Part shown: positions 23,304-54,618 of the stretch, piece after piece
Layout: each line of letters begins with the position of its first letter
Numbering within the stretch: position 1 is the stretch's first letter
Sequence record: NC_105825.1
From: Escherichia phage ECOP18
Direction: 5' to 3' (one strand)
DNA length: 64,000 nucleotides
Notes under the pieces: generated by a model
Seen by the model: the letters and a program-made list of their open reading frames with translations, nothing else
Database searches by the model: none
Told to the model about the DNA's origin: nothing
Made by a program: the position numbers and the translations under genes

Positions 23304-23380
23304 TGGGGTGGCTAGTGAAATTCGAATCCACATAGGCCTGATTCACAATCAGGATCATTAACCAATTATGATATAGCCAC
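23304..23380 (-). tRNA. tRNA-His (GTG)
   Basis: Acceptor GTGGCTA/TAGCCAC, anticodon stem CCTGA/TCAGG, loop TTGTGAA, T-loop TTCGAAT, discriminator C, CCA; no encoded G-1. Confidence 0.6.
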
Positions 23381-24138: not shown

Positions 24139-24217
24139 TGGTGGAGAATAACGGAATCGAACCGTTCTGATGTCCTCGGTGCAAGCGAGGTGTCCACTCC
24201 ATGCAGACCCATTCCCC
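24139..24217 (-). tRNA. tRNA-Ala (TGC)
   Basis: Acceptor GGGGAAT/ATTCTCC with a G3-U70 wobble, anticodon stem CCTCG/CGAGG, loop CTTGCAC, CCA. Confidence 0.6.
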
Positions 24218-28805: not shown

Positions 28806-28884
28806 TTGGTGGCTCCCCGAGGATTCGAACCTACGTACCTTCCGGTTATGAGCCGGGTGCTCATACCATATGAGCTTGAGAACC
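28806..28884 (-). tRNA. tRNA with CAT anticodon (third CAT tRNA)
   Basis: Acceptor GGTTCTC/GGGAGCC with G-U pairs, D-stem GCTC/GAGC, anticodon loop CTCATAA, T-loop TTCGAAT, CCA; T-stem weak. Confidence 0.45.
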
Positions 28885-33084: not shown

Positions 33085-33170
33085 CAGTTCTTACCGACCG
33101 TAGGATTCGAACCTACATCTTCCACCAGTTACGGCTTGATAATACCAATTATACTAGGACGGCAGTGTTA
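33085..33170 (-). ncRNA. tRNA-like element (T-arm GTAGG-TTCGAAT-CCTAC), no clean cloverleaf
   Basis: T-arm motif inside an 830-bp ORF-free stretch that is transcribed from the promoter at 33387. Confidence 0.25.
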
Positions 33171-49874: not shown

Positions 49875-50300
49875 ATGTTCAATAATGTATTTTCTAAAGC
49901 TAACCCAATTTTGGTTAATTTTTGGCGTACTCTTCCAGCCAACCTGTATAATGAGGCTATTAACTCTTTGAAAATATGGTGTGAGAATAACGAAATCTCC
50001 TTTGCTTTTAAAGATGATATTGATGAGGCCCCTTGTATTGGTTTAATTGTTCAGGTAGAGGAGGGTCTTGAAGAGATTGTGGGCTGGAAAGAGTTAGACG
50101 AAATGGGCTTAGTTTTTGCGTTAAATTATAAGCTGTTTATGCCTGCTAAGCATCGCCTTGTTGTTAACTATAAAACTAGTGAATCTCCTGGTTTTCAGGT
50201 TAATGAACGTTATGGTTGGTCTTACTCACCGGAAGAAGTAAATGAGGGGATTCAGAAACTTCGACGTTTCGGGTATATGATCCCAGGTTTAACTGCTTAA
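49875..50300 (+). CDS. hypothetical protein, paralog A
   Basis: 141 aa; shares P/CIG, MGL(I/V)xALN(F/Y) and (I/M)PGL(N/T) segments with the next ORF. Confidence 0.55.
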   Translation: MFNNVFSKANPILVNFWRTLPANLYNEAINSLKIWCENNEISFAFKDDIDEAPCIGLIVQVEEGLEEIVGWKELDEMGLVFALNYKLFMPAKHRLVVNYKTSESPGFQVNERYGWSYSPEEVNEGIQKLRRFGYMIPGLTA

Positions 50301-50309
50301 GGAGGCAGA

Positions 50310-50702
50310 ATGGAACAAGTATATTGGCGTCAGATTGATCCTAGTTTGGTGAAGCGTGCGGAGAAGCTGCTACAACGTTGGTTGGGGGTAAGACAAGCCT
50401 CCTTCACTTTTCCGGAGCAGCAAATAGACGATCCCTGTATTGGTGTTTTCCTATCAGGCTACGCTAGGGAATGGGAATTGGATTGGAATGAGTTGTCTGC
50501 TATGGGTTTAATTGTTGCCCTAAATTTCTCTTTGTTACACCCACGTGGTTTGGCTATATGTCGTGTGCCCGATGATGGTTGTTCGCCCCATCTTTTACAG
50601 GTGGAAGATGATATTTTGGAGTACACTCCAGATATTCTCAAAGAAGCTAAAGAACAATTAAACCGTGTTGGGATCTATGTTCCAGGCCTGAATGATGAAT
50701 GA
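50310..50702 (+). CDS. hypothetical protein, paralog B
   Basis: 130 aa; tandem paralog of 49875-50300. Confidence 0.55.
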   Translation: MEQVYWRQIDPSLVKRAEKLLQRWLGVRQASFTFPEQQIDDPCIGVFLSGYAREWELDWNELSAMGLIVALNFSLLHPRGLAICRVPDDGCSPHLLQVEDDILEYTPDILKEAKEQLNRVGIYVPGLNDE

Positions 50703-50793
50703 TTTTTATTAGCTGAACTTTGTAATCCGGGCTATTAGTGCTCGGATTATTACATAATCTTTTCAGTCGATTGACAGTCAAAATAAATTGTCG

Positions 50794-50822
50794 TTGACAA
50801 TTTGGATGGATTATGTAATAAT
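50794..50822 (+). promoter_or_regulatory. sigma70-like promoter (TTGACA with an AT-rich -10 region)
   Basis: TTGACA at 50794 and also at 50771; -10 register ambiguous (TGTAATAAT). Confidence 0.4.
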
Positions 50823-50841
50823 ATATGTATTGGAGGTGAGG

Positions 50842-51294
50842 ATGTCATTCACACAGCAAGAACTTTTAGATAACTTCCGATATGAAGATGGTAAGTTATT
50901 TAGAACTACAGGAAGAAATGCAGGGAAAGAATGTTGTGTTTCTACGGGTAACGGATATTACCGTATATCTCTAGGGAATAGGACTATGCTTCGGCATAGA
51001 GCAATATTTTTAATGCACCATGGATACTTACCTGATTTAGTAGATCATGTGAACACTATAAAAGGTGATGATCGTATTGAAAATCTTAGAGAGCAGACGG
51101 TATCCGGTAATCTAAGAAATATCAAATACAAGAAAGGAATGCATGTTTACCCTTCTGGTAGTAAGAACTGGCAAGTAGTATTTACTATTAACCGTAAACG
51201 GATAGTTAAAGGAACATATGACAACTATGAGGTTGCATGTTCTATGGCCAAGATGTTTAGAGGTCAATTATACGGTAGGGAATCAATCCAGTAA
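50842..51294 (+). mobile_element. HNH homing endonuclease (free-standing)
   Basis: ORF track frame, start moved to MSFTQQ with RBS ggaggtgagg; HRAIFLMHHGYLPDLVDHVNTIKGDDRIENL is the same motif family as 9185-9598. Confidence 0.6.
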
Positions 51295-51299
51295 AATTT

Positions 51300-51828
51300 C
51301 ATTTGCAAGGGAGTATTATTTTATAGTATAATATTCCCATAAATGAGAGACATTAGTAAAAATTGATTTTGCTAATTTTTCTTGTTTACAATCCGCGATA
51401 CGGAACAGTTAGGCTGCCCCATTAAGGGTTGTTTTAACTGTTACGTGTTAGTTTTTAAACAAATAATTAATAGAATACTTAGCGATCTACATCCCGTAGG
51501 AACCCTGGTAAGGCCTCGAAGCAACCTAGTGTGAGGTGGTTGTGAAGTGAGACGGGAAGAGTGAAAAACTCTGAGAAGTGATGACGTAAGGTATACTGCA
51601 TCTAGTATGAGCTAGTACATGAAGCATTAGGTGAGCAAATCTGGCTTAGCGGCCATCCTCAAGGATTTGTGCGGTATAGTGAAGCGGCAGTGTAGCGTGA
51701 AAGGGGAAGTTGCCACCCCCCTTCAGTATTTGCGATTAATTGTTGAGAAATTGACAGTAACAGTTGTTCTATTCTTTCTGAATAGTCCTAAAGAAAACTT
51801 ATTTCATATCCAACACAGGAGTATTGTT
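51300..51828. other. 530-bp ORF-poor region, GC-richer than its surroundings
   Basis: No RBS-preceded ORF; several GC hairpins; sits between the HNH gene and the large helicase gene. Confidence 0.4.
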
Positions 51829-54618
51829 GTGTTCTCAATCCTACAAGGTCATGCAGGATTTCATCGTGATTTAGCCACAGGCAATTGGCGAGAAGTTAAA
51901 GCAGAAGACTATCTTTTTGCTAAAAGATTTTCCTCAAAGCATCCTGAAGGTAAACCAGCTTCAATGCCCTTCAAGTTTGATGTAATTGATGAAGTTGATC
52001 CTCAAACCCTAGTAGAAATGCTTCCTCTTATGAGACGTTTAACGTCTGACCCTCATATCGTTGCGGTACGAGGTCGATGTCTTGCACCTAAAAATAATGT
52101 GCGACGTAAGAAGGGCAACTTTAATGTATCTAACCCAAGTCATATAATCGCAATGGATGTGGATGGTATTGTAGATACAGGTGGTTGTAACAAGTTTGAT
52201 CTTGTTGGCATGGCTCGACATATTATTAGAATGTTAAATAGTATTAGTGAGGATATGTTCCCTCTTGATGCAGGGTTTATCGCTCATGCATCGTCTTCGG
52301 CTGGGCTAAAACCAGGTATCCGAATGCACTTAATACTAGAATCTAATGTTAAAGTAACTCAGGGTCAAATCAAATTCTTATTTACATCTATCAACGAAAG
52401 TAGTAGACAAAAGTATGGCTTTGATATTGCCGACTTAGCTTATTACTCTTCCGTACAGCTTCATTATTTTGCAGATCCGTTATTTATCGATGGTATAGTA
52501 GATCCGTTTAAAGCGGAGGGTGCTTCACGTCTGGTATTTGTTAAGGGTTCTAAAGTAAATTTACCCAATAATCTGGTTGACTATGAAACAACTAGAGGAG
52601 AGTTTAAAGAGGAGTTCTACTCCTTACTCGATCAAATTAAAGGTAAAAAGGCTGCCTCTGATAAAGTAGAAGAAACCATCAGCGAGTTAGAAGAAGCCGA
52701 GGATGGAGTGTATCTACGTATTATTCCTAAACTCTATCACAGAGCTTTAGAGGATGGTGTTGATTTTGCATGGCTAGAAAAAGAAATCCGCCCAGCCTTA
52801 TCAGAATATATTGCAACTAAAGATAATAGTCGTAATATTCAAGACTACTTTAATAACGGTCGTAAACAGGCTCTGAAAGCGTTTGTTAATAATTCTAAAC
52901 GCGATATACCTGATGTTTTAAAAGGTATTCCACTTAAAAAGCTAGAAACTAATTCTCTAGAAACTGATAACTTCTTGAAATTAAACACTGTACCACCAGA
53001 AGGTTATATGACTTTTGTAAAAGCAAGTCTAGGTACAGGTAAAACTACGGCGGTTGTGCGTTGGTTGGATTCAGGAGTTATTAAAGGTAATTTCTTAGCA
53101 ATTACCAATACTCGAGCACTGGTATCTTCAAATGCTAAGAAATTTAGTGCAGGACAATATGATAAGTCTGTAGATATGCTTAATTTTAAGCGTGGTGCTA
53201 TTGACCGTATGTCCACAACTATTCACTCTTTGCATAAATTCAAGAGTTTTATTGGTCAAATTGACGCAATCTTTATCGATGAATGTGATGCAGTAATGAA
53301 TGACCTATTATTCGCCCCGGTTGTTAAGCAACGTCGCGAGTGTATTCAGGTTCTTAGGGATATTCTTGCAACTGCAAAAATCATTATATTATCCGATGGT
53401 GATATTAGTGCGGAAACAATTGAAGCATATGGTTCTTTGATTGAGTTCGATAAACCAGTTGCATTCTATAATCATCACCGTAAGATGCTGTCAAAAGCTC
53501 ATGCTTATGAGTTCCCTGATGAATCCAGTATTTGGGTTGCACTTCAGACTTCTCTAGAGATGGGTGAGAAATCTATTCTAGTATCTGATTGTGGTCCTGA
53601 TGAGCTGAATGAGAAGGGTATGGCACTACGTCGTAATACTGGTGCGTTAGTTAAGGAAATCCATTCAAACTCCACCTCAGATGTGGATATTCGACGTATT
53701 CTGGATTATACAACTAATGAGCTAATTGATCAACAAATTGATTGCTTATTATGTAGTCCATCCGTAACGAGTGGCGTTGACTTCAACTATTTCGATAATG
53801 TATTTGTTATTACTAGAACCAGTAATCAAGCGCCAAACATGCGTTTTCAAGCAATCAGGCGCGACCGTGGTGCTCAGAACATCTATTATTTTATTGATAA
53901 ATCCACAAGTGGATTCTCCGCAGGTTCTGAACAATATAACATTGATGAGGGTTGGCTGGAGTTAGCACAGCAATTATACGCACGTCGTAGGGAGCTGGAA
54001 TCTAGGAACTATACTAGTACTTTACGTTATTACTTGCTTGATCAGGGTGCAACTATTGATATTTTCAGCGAAAGCTGGGGAACTATTGAAGGTGCTGGTA
54101 AAGAGTACACAGAAGAGCGAATCAAAGCTATTCTGCACTCAACTCCTGATTATTGTGCTCCACGTCATGCGGATGCGTATGAGGCTAAACTACTTCTTGT
54201 TCGCTATTATCATCTTGGGTCTATTAAAGATGTAACAGTTGAGCATGTTGAACAATATATCAAAGATAAACCGAATGATCGAGCTGCATTCTTCCATAAG
54301 ATGCACGAGATGTTCTGGGAAGATATTAAGAAGTGTTCAAATGTTACTATCAAACCATTCATAGAAGCTCTGAAAGGTAAGAAGAAAGATTTCTTCCTTA
54401 AAACAGGTCAGAGTGCTAACCCAAAATATGCTAGAATGTATCTTGGTATGATGGGTATTGGTAAGGATATGAACACTGAAAATATTGTAGACTGGTACAG
54501 AACCTATTGTAAAATCGAGTGTATGCCAATTCCTTATAAGTTCATGACTGACGAGGAAAAACATATGCATGATGAAGCAATGTCAGAGCTAGGTGCTAGA
54601 AATGACAGTGAAGAATAA
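51829..54618 (+). CDS. SF2-type helicase / putative replication-origin-binding protein
   Basis: ORF track frame, start moved to GTG after RBS aggag; Walker A SLGTGKTT and DECD box (IFIDECDAV); about 929 aa. Confidence 0.6.
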   Translation: MFSILQGHAGFHRDLATGNWREVKAEDYLFAKRFSSKHPEGKPASMPFKFDVIDEVDPQTLVEMLPLMRRLTSDPHIVAVRGRCLAPKNNVRRKKGNFNVSNPSHIIAMDVDGIVDTGGCNKFDLVGMARHIIRMLNSISEDMFPLDAGFIAHASSSAGLKPGIRMHLILESNVKVTQGQIKFLFTSINESSRQKYGFDIADLAYYSSVQLHYFADPLFIDGIVDPFKAEGASRLVFVKGSKVNLPNNLVDYETTRGEFKEEFYSLLDQIKGKKAASDKVEETISELEEAEDGVYLRIIPKLYHRALEDGVDFAWLEKEIRPALSEYIATKDNSRNIQDYFNNGRKQALKAFVNNSKRDIPDVLKGIPLKKLETNSLETDNFLKLNTVPPEGYMTFVKASLGTGKTTAVVRWLDSGVIKGNFLAITNTRALVSSNAKKFSAGQYDKSVDMLNFKRGAIDRMSTTIHSLHKFKSFIGQIDAIFIDECDAVMNDLLFAPVVKQRRECIQVLRDILATAKIIILSDGDISAETIEAYGSLIEFDKPVAFYNHHRKMLSKAHAYEFPDESSIWVALQTSLEMGEKSILVSDCGPDELNEKGMALRRNTGALVKEIHSNSTSDVDIRRILDYTTNELIDQQIDCLLCSPSVTSGVDFNYFDNVFVITRTSNQAPNMRFQAIRRDRGAQNIYYFIDKSTSGFSAGSEQYNIDEGWLELAQQLYARRRELESRNYTSTLRYYLLDQGATIDIFSESWGTIEGAGKEYTEERIKAILHSTPDYCAPRHADAYEAKLLLVRYYHLGSIKDVTVEHVEQYIKDKPNDRAAFFHKMHEMFWEDIKKCSNVTIKPFIEALKGKKKDFFLKTGQSANPKYARMYLGMMGIGKDMNTENIVDWYRTYCKIECMPIPYKFMTDEEKHMHDEAMSELGARNDSEE

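What the first reader, a model, noticed from the sequence alone, without database searches (positions are those of the whole stretch)
50842..51828. HNH endonuclease followed by a 530-bp GC-richer non-coding stretch upstream of the origin-binding-like helicase
The free-standing HNH gene is followed by an ORF-poor segment with several GC hairpins. The six-frame track fuses this segment to the helicase ORF, but there is no RBS and the composition differs. It could be a relic of the homing event, a structured RNA, or an origin-proximal control region given the adjacent SF2 helicase.
Basis: inference. Interest (0 to 1): 0.45.

Follow-up and report, generated by a model that had tools for sequence, protein, structure and literature searches.

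The report
Large structured leader RNA before helicase
The "non-coding stretch" is not debris left by the HNH endonuclease gene: it is an undescribed, roughly 480-base, elaborately folded leader at the start of the replication-helicase (D2) message, kept in phage T5 and more than 400 relatives, and its role in switching on phage DNA replication is still unknown.

Summary
The window is a T5-like phage. The HNH gene (50842-51294) and the ORF-free stretch up to the helicase start are real. The helicase starts at GTG 51820, not 51631.

The stretch is not tied to the HNH gene. It occurs in 444 phage records, and only 41 of those carry the HNH gene. T5 itself lacks it. The HNH cassette (50723-51326) sits upstream of a conserved early promoter, annotated T5P32 in T5.

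From that promoter to the start codon the + strand folds into:
- a 23-bp hairpin;
- a small, near-invariant hairpin;
- a 30-38-bp AU-rich rod that closes a 216-223-nt multi-helix core;
- a final hairpin.

A covariance model built from one allele alone finds the very different T5 allele and three other genera at the same position. In that alignment 94.7% of cells pair (35-44% in slid controls). 46 of 61 pairs carry changes on both sides. G-U cells outnumber A-C cells 145 to 20, so only the + strand folds.

No Rfam family matches and I found no paper describing it.

Best reading (about 0.4): a cis-acting structured leader RNA, bound by a specific partner, that controls processing or expression of the UL9-like D2 helicase. 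Rivals: an origin element, or an excised trans-acting RNA.

The parts
50723..51326 (+). HNH cassette: DNA present here but absent from T5. It replaces 94 bp of T5 (a terminator and the -35 region). It is a unit separate from the structured leader.
   Evidence: BLAST of T5-type loci against the window: homology stops at 50722 and resumes at 51327. The HNH gene is found in 41 of the 444 records that hold the leader.
50794..50822 (+). Promoter-like site for the HNH gene (TTGACA, 17 nt, AATAAT; 11 of 12 matches, TG present).
   Evidence: Consensus scan only.
50842..51294 (+). Free-standing HNH_3 homing-type endonuclease, 150 aa.
   Evidence: ORF list; Pfam PF13392 E=2.3e-11; PHROG 99 E=1.5e-41.
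51303..51332 (+). Early promoter of the leader (-35 TTGCAA, 18 nt, -10 TATAAT). It corresponds to 'putative early promoter T5P32' of T5. The inferred transcription start is near 51339.
   Evidence: Consensus scan, 10 of 12. T5 record AY587007 annotates promoter T5P32 at the matching place. CTTGCA-N17/18-TATAAT is conserved in T5, DU_PP_V, Sugarland and L069, with CTTGCC as the -35 in L069. The start site is inferred, not measured.
51341..51387 (+). P(-1): a promoter-proximal, AU-rich hairpin of 23 bp. Its 3' arm is itself the U-run (UUUUUCUUGUUU). Some phage records annotate it as a terminator.
   Evidence: RNAalifold on 5 lineages: 23 pairs, 10 of them with changes on both sides. Annotated 'terminator' in Shivani and Stitch.
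51397..51423 (+). P0: a small hairpin (core CAGU-UAG-GCUG) in a nearly invariant 27-nt block, GAUACGGAACAGUUAGGCUGCCCCAUU.
   Evidence: Invariant or nearly so across genera whose helicase is only 65-75% identical. GG/CC changes to AG/CU in Sugarland. The outer stem changes from GCAU/AUGC to GUAU/AUAC between two Sugarland-type contigs.
51435..51479 (+). 5' arm of the long AU-rich rod (P1 plus P2).
   Evidence: Pairs with 51725-51766. The rod-plus-P11 ladder counts 32-45 bp, about 30-38 bp of which is the P1/P2 rod, in every lineage although the sequences differ, with 4-10 G-U pairs. AACUGUUAC/GUAACAGUU becomes AACUAUUAC/GUAAUAGUU in the other allele.
51482..51698 (+). Inner core: helices P3, P4, P5, P5a, P5b, P6, P7, P8, P9 and P10 (61 modelled base pairs). 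Its length is 216-223 nt in all lineages.
   Evidence: Model R1, built from this allele only, gives full-length + strand hits in T5 (E about 2e-7), Sugarland (1.5e-9), DU_PP_V (1.8e-27) and L069 (1.5e-19).
51643..51654 (+). P10 hairpin GGCU-UAGC-GGCC. The decamer GCUUAGCGGC is the most conserved island of the core.
   Evidence: CUUAGCGG is invariant in all aligned lineages and the full decamer varies only in L069 and L070/L071. It is also present in the Providencia-type loci, and L070/L071 carry CCUUAGCGGG. One compensatory change (GACU/GGUC) is seen in L069.
51699..51724 (+). P11 hairpin (GAAAGGGG...CCCCUUC). The loop is AGUUGCCA in three lineages.
   Evidence: Stem sequences differ between alleles: AAGGGG/CCCCUU, AAGUGG/CCACUU and GAUAUGA/UCAUAUU.
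51725..51766 (+). 3' arm of the long rod (P2 plus P1).
   Evidence: See the 5' arm.
51769..51785 (+). P12 hairpin (CUAUUC-UUUCU-GAAUAG) between the rod and the ribosome-binding site. No U-run follows it.
   Evidence: Kept as CUUUC/GAAAG (DU_PP_V), CUAUC/GAUAG (Sugarland) and CCUG/CAGG (L031). No terminator-like site in 51400-51819.
51810..51814 (+). Shine-Dalgarno AGGAG of the helicase gene.
   Evidence: Conserved position before the start codon in all relatives.
51820..54618 (+). D2 / 'replication origin binding protein': a UL9-like SF2 helicase, 932 aa. The true start is GTG 51820.
   Evidence: Pfam Herpes_ori_bp at residues 397-536. Herpesvirus OBP structures match residues 391-535. The domain positions match those reported for the biochemically characterised T5 D2 bipolar helicase (PMC3632103).

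Best explanation
SHOWN. The stretch is the 5' leader of the D2 (UL9-like helicase) transcription unit. A conserved sigma-70 early promoter (-10 at 51327-51332) is followed by about 480 nt whose + strand folds into a conserved architecture:
- hairpin P(-1);
- the near-invariant hairpin P0;
- an AU-rich rod of 30-38 bp (P1/P2) closing a core of about 217 nt with ten helices, plus hairpin P11;
- hairpin P12, then the ribosome-binding site and GTG 51820.

The fold is kept by compensatory substitutions in at least six lineages, while the sequence has diverged to near-randomness between two alleles. It is independent of the HNH gene.

INFERRED. It acts as RNA, in cis, on the message it heads. The strict length and the invariant loops (GCUUAGCGGC, AGUUGCCA, the P0 block) suggest a precise three-dimensional fold recognised by a dedicated partner. 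The most economical candidate is a phage replication protein such as D2 itself, giving autogenous control of initiator synthesis.

The long AU-rich rod is the kind of double-stranded stem that host RNase III cuts in rRNA precursors and in T7 or lambda early messages. Cleavage there would detach the folded core and give the D2 message a new 5' end, setting its stability and translation.
For: - Identity and synteny: the leader is present before the helicase gene in 444 T5-like records. T5's own record shows terminator, promoter T5P32, then 472 unannotated nt before obp.
- Promoter: conserved in four genera.
- Structure: a model built from 8 sequences of one allele finds the other allele and three other genera, full length, on the + strand, at the syntenic place.
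- Covariation: 94.7% of cells pair, against 74.5% in shuffles and 35-44% in slid controls. 46 of 61 pairs change on both sides. The covariation score is 0.506, against 0.06-0.11 in slid controls.
- Alignment-independent check: among near-identical A-type sequences, 11 of 12 variable paired columns keep pairing.
- Independent predictions for the two alleles give the same helix order and similar helix lengths.
- Outer helices: the P1/P2 rod is 30-38 bp in each lineage. P(-1) has 23 pairs, 10 with double changes.
- Strand: 145 G-U cells against 20 A-C cells, and all model hits are on the + strand.
- Core length is held at 216-223 nt.
- Not coding.
- No terminator-like site between P0 and the start codon, so the structure is co-transcribed with D2.
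- One copy per genome (window included). Found only in T5-like phages in the phage, viral-contig and metagenome collections.
Against: - No expression, processing or binding data exist. The RNA nature, the start site near 51339 and RNase III cleavage are all inferences.
- The Shine-Dalgarno sequence and start codon are not sequestered by any conserved helix, and I found no conserved alternative pairing. The S1:S2 alternative is lost in several lineages. A classical expression platform is therefore missing.
- Thirteen helices and strict length conservation are more than known autoregulatory operators need.
- P(-1) looks like a weak terminator (hairpin whose 3' arm is the U-run), which would argue for a second start site or for attenuation.
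- RNA allele type does not track D2 sequence closely. L013 has the A-type RNA with a D2 as diverged as T5's, so RNA-protein co-evolution is not demonstrated.
- The covariation alignment was fitted to the model, and the independent lineages are few (about six or seven).
Confidence: 0.4

Rival explanations
1. Origin-of-replication element. The region is, or is part of, the primary T5 origin. Transcription from the strong early promoter opens the DNA. The transcript, or the displaced + strand, folds and is used to load the adjacent UL9-like D2 helicase and/or to prime synthesis, as in ColE1 RNA II, T4 oriF/oriG, the T7 primary origin or the HSV oriS* hairpin.
For: - It lies at 48-49% of the genome: 56.9-58.1 kb of 118 kb in MM-1 and 59.07-59.61 kb of 121.75 kb in T5.
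- From my own knowledge, electron microscopy by Bourguignon et al. 1976 placed first-round initiation near the middle of the molecule. That paper was not readable here and is cited only through PMC3632103.
- It is directly adjacent to the gene for the proposed initiator D2.
- It has a conserved strong promoter and A+T-rich arms flanking a G+C-richer core.
- Fold conservation on the + strand alone would also fit a displaced non-template DNA strand.
Against: - No iteron family or inverted pair of binding sites was found.
- TAACAGTT is not enriched beyond the RNA-pairing copies: 8 found against 3.7 expected, and 3 of 100 shuffles reach 8.
- There is no GC-skew inflection here.
- A DNA origin does not need ten internal helices kept by G-U-tolerant covariation.
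- Heavily folded RNA disfavours R-loop formation.
- D2 binding to this DNA has never been tested.
Confidence: 0.25
2. Excised trans-acting RNA. The rod is a processing stalk, as around 16S and 23S rRNA. The released core of about 250-300 nt is a stable RNA with its own job: scaffold of a ribonucleoprotein with D2 or another phage protein, a ribozyme, or a decoy for a host nuclease or defence system. Its place in the D2 leader serves only to time its synthesis.
For: - The layout promoter, hairpin, long closing stem, compact core is that of an rRNA operon leader.
- Core length is strictly conserved and loop sequences are invariant.
- The core is exchanged between phages as a self-contained cassette with break-points at the base of P1.
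- There is precedent for large RNAs encoded just upstream of their protein partner, such as HEARO/omega RNA with IscB and retron or DRT non-coding RNAs (my own knowledge).
Against: - There is no terminator or independent 3' end signal.
- It is never found away from the D2 gene.
- No known ribozyme or ribonucleoprotein family matches.
- No stable T5 RNA has been reported from this map position (literature searches; the library is incomplete).
Confidence: 0.2
3. Single-stranded DNA structure. The fold forms in + strand DNA, not RNA, and acts like a single-strand initiation signal (sso or pas type) for primosome or primase loading.
For: Folding is strand-specific with wobble pairs. The size is similar to plasmid single-strand origins (my own knowledge). 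It is adjacent to replication genes.
Against: G-U makes up about 15% of paired cells, which is high for DNA hairpins. A conserved promoter sits at a fixed distance upstream. Multi-way junctions with invariant loops are typical of RNA. T5 is not known to replicate through a long-lived single-stranded stage.
Confidence: 0.05
4. Relic or by-product of the HNH homing event, or fast-evolving spacer DNA with no function of its own.
For: It is next to a free-standing homing endonuclease gene. Two very different alleles exist.
Against: About 91% of genomes with the region lack the HNH gene. The cassette boundary is upstream, at 51326. The fold is maintained by compensatory change across genera, which neutral DNA would not show.
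Confidence: 0.02

Closest known systems
rRNA-operon leader with RNase III processing stalk; RNase III sites in T7 early and lambda N-leader RNA
   Same: The order is promoter, leader hairpin, then a long imperfect double-stranded stem formed by sequences flanking a compact folded RNA. The stem is over 20 bp and AU-rich. A sequence after P(-1) resembles rrn boxA at 8 of 11 positions.
   Different: The enclosed RNA is about 220-330 nt, of unknown function, and is followed by a protein gene. Cleavage is untested. The boxA resemblance may be chance.
HEARO / omega RNA upstream of IscB (Rfam RF02033)
   Same: A large structured RNA lies in the 5' untranslated region directly before a nucleic-acid enzyme gene, with an HNH protein nearby.
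   Different: No Rfam match. The HNH here is a 150-aa free-standing HNH_3 homing-type enzyme that lies upstream of the RNA's promoter and is missing from 91% of genomes. The downstream gene is an SF2 helicase, not IscB.
Autogenous translational operators of phage replication proteins (T4 gp32, gp43, RegA; f1 gene V on gene II mRNA)
   Same: A cis-acting RNA element in the leader of a replication gene of a virulent phage. The proposed partner is the encoded protein or one of its co-workers.
   Different: Those operators are 20-100 nt and overlap the ribosome-binding site. This one is about 480 nt, has at least 13 helices, and leaves the ribosome-binding site outside the conserved helices.
Transcript-dependent origins (ColE1 RNA II; T4 oriF/oriG; T7 primary origin) and HSV oriS/oriL bound by UL9
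   Same: A strong promoter reads into a region next to, or recognised by, the initiator. The neighbouring protein is a UL9 homologue. The position in the genome is central.
   Different: No initiator binding-site repeats were found. The conservation pattern is that of a folded single strand, not of duplex sites. No mapping data exist.
Large bacterial and phage non-coding RNAs of unknown function (ROOL, GOLLD, OLE, raiA)
   Same: Size class above 300 nt, a many-helix architecture supported by covariation, association with phages (ROOL, GOLLD), and no known function at the time of discovery.
   Different: No sequence or structure match (Rfam E up to 10). This RNA is not free-standing: it is always the leader of one particular gene and is restricted to T5-like phages.
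T-box and other large riboswitch leaders
   Same: A long structured 5' leader with invariant loop sequences and conserved helix lengths.
   Different: No terminator/antiterminator or SD/anti-SD platform was found. It is longer than typical riboswitch leaders, and there is no Rfam match.

Membership tests
Conserved structured RNA (generic) | Base pairs maintained by compensatory substitutions beyond what controls give | tested here: met
   94.7% of cells pair, against 74.5% in shuffles and 35-44% in slid controls. 46 of 61 pairs have double changes. 11 of 12 variable paired columns keep pairing in a trivially aligned set. P(-1) has 10 of 23 pairs with double changes.
Conserved structured RNA (generic) | Structure specific to one strand | tested here: met
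   145 G-U cells against 20 A-C cells. All model hits are on the + strand.
Conserved structured RNA (generic) | The region is transcribed | not testable with these tools
   There is only a conserved promoter consensus and the T5P32 annotation. No RNA data are available.
Any family of Rfam 15 | cmscan match at the gathering score, or at least E<0.01 | tested here: not met
   The best hits are archaeal C/D-box snoRNA models at E=0.1-6, far below their gathering scores. Nothing was found for the T5 allele. Only tRNAs appear in the whole window.
Part or relic of the HNH homing cassette | Co-occurs with the endonuclease gene and is absent from genomes that lack it | tested here: not met
   444 records hold the region and 41 hold the HNH gene. 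The cassette ends at 51326.
Group I intron (usual RNA host of phage homing endonucleases) | Interrupts a gene and has the conserved P3-P9 core (RF00028) | tested here: not met
   It lies between promoter and start codon, with no flanking exons. No Rfam hit even at E up to 10.
HEARO / omega RNA-IscB | Adjacent IscB-type (RuvC plus HNH) ORF, and a match to RF02033 | tested here: not met
   The HNH protein is 150 aa with an HNH_3 domain only, is optional and lies upstream. No Rfam match.
Riboswitch or attenuator leader | Expression platform: a terminator/antiterminator or an SD-sequestering alternative helix | tested here: inconclusive
   No terminator-like site in 51400-51819. The SD lies outside the conserved helices. 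The S1:S2 alternative pairing is not conserved. However, P(-1) is a hairpin with a U-run that some records annotate as a terminator.
RNase III processing stalk | About 20 bp or more of mostly continuous double-stranded RNA closing the domain | tested here: met
   30-38 bp with 1-3-nt bulges in seven lineages.
RNase III processing stalk | Cleavage by RNase III in vivo or in vitro | not testable with these tools
   This needs RNA from wild-type and rnc-minus hosts.
Replication origin of the OBP/UL9 type | Repeated initiator-binding sites around an A+T-rich unwinding element | tested here: inconclusive
   No iteron family. TAACAGTT occurs 8 times against 3.7 expected in the window, and the two local copies are explained as the two strands of helix P1. 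A+T-rich arms are present.
Replication origin of the OBP/UL9 type | Initiation mapped to the site | not testable with these tools
   Only the central genome position is known.
Protein-coding sequence (N-terminal extension of the helicase, or small ORFs) | Reading frame conserved among relatives | tested here: not met
   The in-frame open stretch is 63 codons here but 27, 23 and 4 in relatives. Other stop-free stretches differ between alleles.

The most novel reading that the evidence does not exclude
The folded leader is an RNA component of replication initiation in T5-like phages. It would be either an origin-defining transcript that recruits or loads the UL9-like D2 helicase, or an RNase III-excised core that forms a ribonucleoprotein (or a ribozyme) with a phage replication protein. 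A classical model phage would then use a large structured RNA to license its origin. No such mechanism is known for a double-stranded DNA phage.
Probability: 0.2. Interest if true: 0.9.

Novelty: new variant of a known kind. Interest (0 to 1): 0.72.

Why it matters
T5 is one of the seven classical T phages, yet its origin of replication and the control of its replication genes are still undefined. This result puts a concrete, testable object at the right place. It is a structured RNA of more than 300 nt, supported by covariation, at the head of the gene for the proposed initiator helicase, at the centre of the genome. It is conserved in over 400 sequenced phages, many of them therapy candidates.

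Structured RNAs of this size and complexity are rare in bacteria and phages, and the known ones (RNase P, tmRNA, OLE, ROOL, GOLLD, omega RNA) have repaid study.

There are practical consequences too:
- Annotation pipelines scatter spurious 'hypothetical proteins' and an over-long helicase ORF over this region.
- Its two structure-preserving alleles give ready-made compensatory mutants.
- Genome engineers should avoid treating this intergenic region as a neutral insertion site.

Tried and rejected
- Rfam at permissive thresholds, on the window and on the T5 allele, gave only noise. ARAGORN found no tRNA or tmRNA here.
- MAFFT plus RNAalifold on all lineages together misaligned the divergent alleles and recovered only fragments. 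mafft-qinsi was unusable because MXSCARNA is missing. I therefore folded each allele group separately and then used covariance models.
A 91-nt subdomain model (R2) replaced it.
- R1 and R2 found nothing in Vibrio, Aeromonas and other distant T5-like loci. Their leaders fold no better than shuffles (z about -1.1). The family is therefore shown only for the Escherichia, Salmonella, Klebsiella, Pectobacterium and Providencia-type branches.
- My own shuffle script for more z-scores timed out twice.
- Ideas rejected:
  - An S1/S2/S3 'AACAGTT' riboswitch-like alternative pairing or protein-site triplet: not conserved and not enriched.
  - A second promoter (TTGATT-18-TACAAT, 51363-51392): not conserved in L069 or Sugarland.
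  - A pseudoknot between the P11 loop and P5b or the junctions: no covariation, by inspection.
  - Resemblance of GGCUUAGCGGCC and ACAGAAC to RNase P conserved region V: recalled from memory, with no Rfam support.
  - C/D-box or kink-turn hits: present only in one sub-allele.
- A metagenome scan with the P0 motif gave only T5-like contigs plus chance matches in unrelated G+C-rich DNA.
- Seven literature searches found no description of this RNA. The 1976 origin-mapping paper is not held.
Full report
**What the window is.** The region is 93-99% identical to T5-like phages (Tequintavirus and relatives). The best match is Escherichia phage vB_EcoS_MM-1, at 98.8% over 50700-51900. The gene after the stretch is annotated 'replication origin binding protein'. 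It carries Pfam Herpes_ori_bp at residues 397-536 and matches solved herpesvirus UL9-type structures over residues 391-535. These domain positions match those reported for the T5 D2 protein, a biochemically characterised bipolar SF2 helicase proposed to act in initiation (PMC3632103).

ORF 50842-51294 is a 150-aa HNH_3 endonuclease. Between its stop codon and the helicase start there are 525 bp without a conserved ORF.
- The frame that runs into the helicase is open for 63 codons here, but for only 27, 23 and 4 codons in relatives.
- All relatives share an AGGAG-type ribosome-binding site just before the GTG or ATG that aligns with 51820.
- G+C rises from 0.32 (51300-51499) to 0.49 (51500-51699).
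- The + strand of 51340-51830 folds better than all 100 dinucleotide shuffles, with z = -3.19. The opposite strand gives z = -2.39.

**The stretch does not belong to the HNH gene.** The 525-bp stretch matches 444 phage records. The HNH gene matches 41. T5 itself lacks the HNH gene but has 608 bp between its T5.107 gene and the helicase gene. Comparison with T5 places the HNH cassette at window 50723-51326. There it replaces 94 bp that, in T5, hold a rho-independent terminator and the -35 region of a promoter. Homology resumes at the -10 element.

**A conserved promoter heads the stretch.**
- T5 record AY587007 annotates 'putative early promoter T5P32' at the equivalent place, followed by 472 unannotated nt before obp.
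- The motif (A/T tract)-CTTGCA-N17/18-TATAAT, followed about 13 nt later by UUGAGAGA, is conserved in T5, Pectobacterium phage DU_PP_V, Klebsiella phage Sugarland and locus L069, with CTTGCC as the -35 in L069.
- In the window the promoter is TTGCAA-18-TATAAT at 51303-51332.
- The start site near 51339 is inferred from spacing, not measured.

**Two alleles with one architecture.** Among close relatives the first about 120 nt and the last about 65 nt of the stretch are 86-100% identical. The roughly 305 nt in between come in two forms of the same length. The A type (this window) covers at least 80% of the query in 162 records. The B type includes T5. MAFFT identity between the two cores is 24-57%, while the first 1650 nt of D2 are 82-90% identical (one 150-nt window at 71%) and most of the rest 94-99%. 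Folding each allele group separately gives the same order of helices with similar lengths and different sequences (for A, for B). In window coordinates the helices are:
- P1, 51435-51467 with 51735-51766
- P2, 51473-79 with 51725-31
- P3, 51482-84 with 51696-98
- P4, 51487-92 with 51690-95
- P5, 51493-97 with 51552-56
- hairpins P5a and P5b inside P5
- hairpin P6, 51558-72
- P7, 51592-98 with 51672-78, enclosing hairpins P8 and P9/P10
- P11, 51699-724
- P12, 51769-85

**Test with covariance models.** Model R1 was built from eight A-type sequences only (217 positions, 61 pairs).
- It finds full-length, + strand hits at the syntenic place in every B-type locus, including T5 (E about 2e-7), and in Sugarland (1.5e-9), DU_PP_V (1.8e-27) and L069 (1.5e-19). 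For T5, L025, DU_PP_V and L069 the hit ends match, to within a base, the boundaries I had located beforehand by sequence search; the Sugarland boundaries come from the model alone.
- Core length is 216-223 nt in all of them.
- On the resulting alignment 94.7% of cells form standard pairs, against 74.5% when partners are shuffled and 35-44% when partners are slid by 1-3 columns.
- 46 of 61 pairs have changes on both sides, and the covariation score is 0.506 against 0.06-0.11.
- That alignment is fitted to the model, so I also looked at the trivially aligned A-type set. Of 12 variable paired columns, 11 keep pairing: four clean AU/GC swaps, one CG-UG-UA series and one GC-GU change.
- A 91-nt subdomain model (R2) additionally finds two Providencia/Proteus-type loci (E = 5e-4 and 0.01). 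It finds L070/L071 only weakly (0.86). It finds nothing in Vibrio or Aeromonas T5-like phages.

**Outer helices.** Each lineage forms its own P1/P2 rod of 30-38 bp with only small bulges and 4-10 G-U pairs. At its base, AACUGUUAC/GUAACAGUU changes to AACUAUUAC/GUAAUAGUU. T5 shows the G-U intermediate. The promoter-proximal hairpin P(-1), 51341-51387, has 23 pairs in five lineages, 10 of them with double changes. Its 3' arm is itself the U-run, and Shivani and Stitch annotate it as a terminator. P0 lies in a 27-nt block that is almost invariant across genera. Its stems show GG/CC to AG/CU, and GCAU/AUGC to GUAU/AUAC between two Sugarland-type contigs.

**Strand and molecule.** Paired cells include 145 G-U but only 20 A-C. 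The complementary strand therefore could not form the structure, and a duplex-DNA cruciform is excluded. The + strand is the sense strand of D2. RNA is the simplest reading: a promoter sits at a fixed distance upstream, G-U makes up about 15% of pairs, and there are multi-way junctions. The same fold in displaced + strand DNA cannot be excluded by sequence alone.

**What it is not.**
- No Rfam family matches, even at E up to 10, for either allele. Only tRNAs are found elsewhere in the window.
- It is not a tRNA or tmRNA.
- It is not coding.
- It is not a group I intron or a HEARO/omega RNA (see the membership table).
- There is one copy per genome.
- It occurs only in T5-like phages in the phage, viral-contig and metagenome collections. 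The extra metagenome matches to the P0 motif are chance hits in unrelated G+C-rich DNA.
- Seven full-text searches found no description of it. The library is incomplete.

**How it most likely works.** Shown: a conserved, + strand, many-helix fold fills the whole leader of the D2 transcription unit. Everything beyond that is inference. The constant core length and the invariant loops (GCUUAGCGGC at 51644-51653, AGUUGCCA in P11, the P0 block) point to a defined three-dimensional shape read by a specific partner. No terminator-like site separates the fold from D2, and the RNA is never found away from D2. I therefore favour a cis-acting leader that sets D2 synthesis, with confidence about 0.4. The most likely route is binding of a replication protein, giving autogenous control. 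The AU-rich rod would serve as an RNase III-type processing site that detaches the core and redefines the 5' end of the message. Against this reading, the ribosome-binding site is not sequestered, no conserved alternative pairing exists, and the structure is far larger than known operators.

**Rivals.**
- An origin element, about 0.25. For: the central position (48-49% of the genome), the adjacent UL9-like initiator, a strong promoter and A+T-rich arms. Against: no binding-site repeats and no skew inflection.
- An excised trans-acting RNA or ribonucleoprotein, about 0.2. For: a layout like an rRNA operon leader, and exchange of the core as a cassette. Against: no 3' end signal of its own, and strict linkage to D2.
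- A + strand DNA structure, about 0.05.
- A relic or neutral spacer, about 0.02. This is refuted.

**Verdict.** The element is much larger and better supported than supposed, and it is independent of the HNH gene. As far as these resources show, it is an undescribed RNA class in a classical model phage. Its function is open and directly testable.

Noticed in passing
L012 2467-2555; also L024 and L033 (equivalent to an insertion at window 51376-51383): Some relatives carry an insertion of about 89 nt in the 3' side of hairpin P(-1), flanked by a short repeat (TTTTTCTT). Salmonella phage Shivani (L001 3096-3330) instead has a tandem duplication of promoter plus P(-1), one copy from the HNH cassette and one of the T5 type.
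   Followed up: partly
window 51380-51390: CTTGTTTACAA, just after hairpin P(-1), resembles the rrn antitermination boxA (CTCTTTAACAA) at 8 of 11 positions. The order promoter, hairpin, boxA-like sequence, long stem, folded core mirrors an rRNA operon leader. The resemblance may be chance.
   Followed up: no
window 51820-52990 (D2 residues 1-390): The N-terminal third of D2 has residues invariant in eight sequences from several genera (D113, D115, S158, S160, G162, H170). They look like motifs I and II of archaeo-eukaryotic primase-polymerases. Pfam detects only the UL9-like helicase part. If real, D2 would be a primase-helicase fusion.
   Followed up: no
L036 960-1671, L039 1006-1716, L037 986-1713, L038 19-1608: Vibrio and Aeromonas T5-like phages also keep 700-1600 bp without credible genes before their OBP gene. 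My models do not match them, and the one Vibrio leader tested (L039), like the leader of the distant metagenome-derived locus L077, folds no better than shuffles (z about -1.1).
   Followed up: partly
window 51450-51755 compared with T5 (L022 2634-2936), and D2 nt 1-1650: The RNA core exists as two alleles of equal length at near-random identity (24-57%). The adjoining D2 5' half is 82-90% identical (one 150-nt window at 71%) and most of the D2 3' half 94-99%. This is a mosaic block whose edge lies next to a homing-endonuclease insertion site, which fits the idea that nuclease genes mark boundaries of genetic exchange (bioRxiv 10.1101/2023.03.23.533998).
   Followed up: partly
window 51402-51410, 51436-51444, 51757-51765: GGAACAGTT (in P0) and GTAACAGTT (3' arm of P1) are near copies, both complementary to AACTGTTAC (5' arm of P1). 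An alternative local hairpin is therefore possible in this phage and in T5. It is lost in other B-type phages and in DU_PP_V, so it is not a conserved switch.
   Followed up: yes
window 28810-28884 (-), 33092-33163 (-), 23304-23380 (-), 24139-24217 (-): The two tRNA finders disagree. Rfam calls two tRNAs that ARAGORN missed (28810-28884, 33092-33163). ARAGORN calls tRNA-His (23304-23380) and tRNA-Ala (24139-24217), which the Rfam gathering threshold missed. The window holds about 23 tRNA genes, all on the - strand.
   Followed up: no
window 50310-50702: The gene before the HNH cassette (T5.107 homologue) matches Pfam DUF7415 in two stretches (E = 5.8e-31). In the window it and its upstream neighbour 49875-50300 share several short motifs (PCIG, MGL, ALN) and the C-terminal motif PGL.
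   Followed up: no
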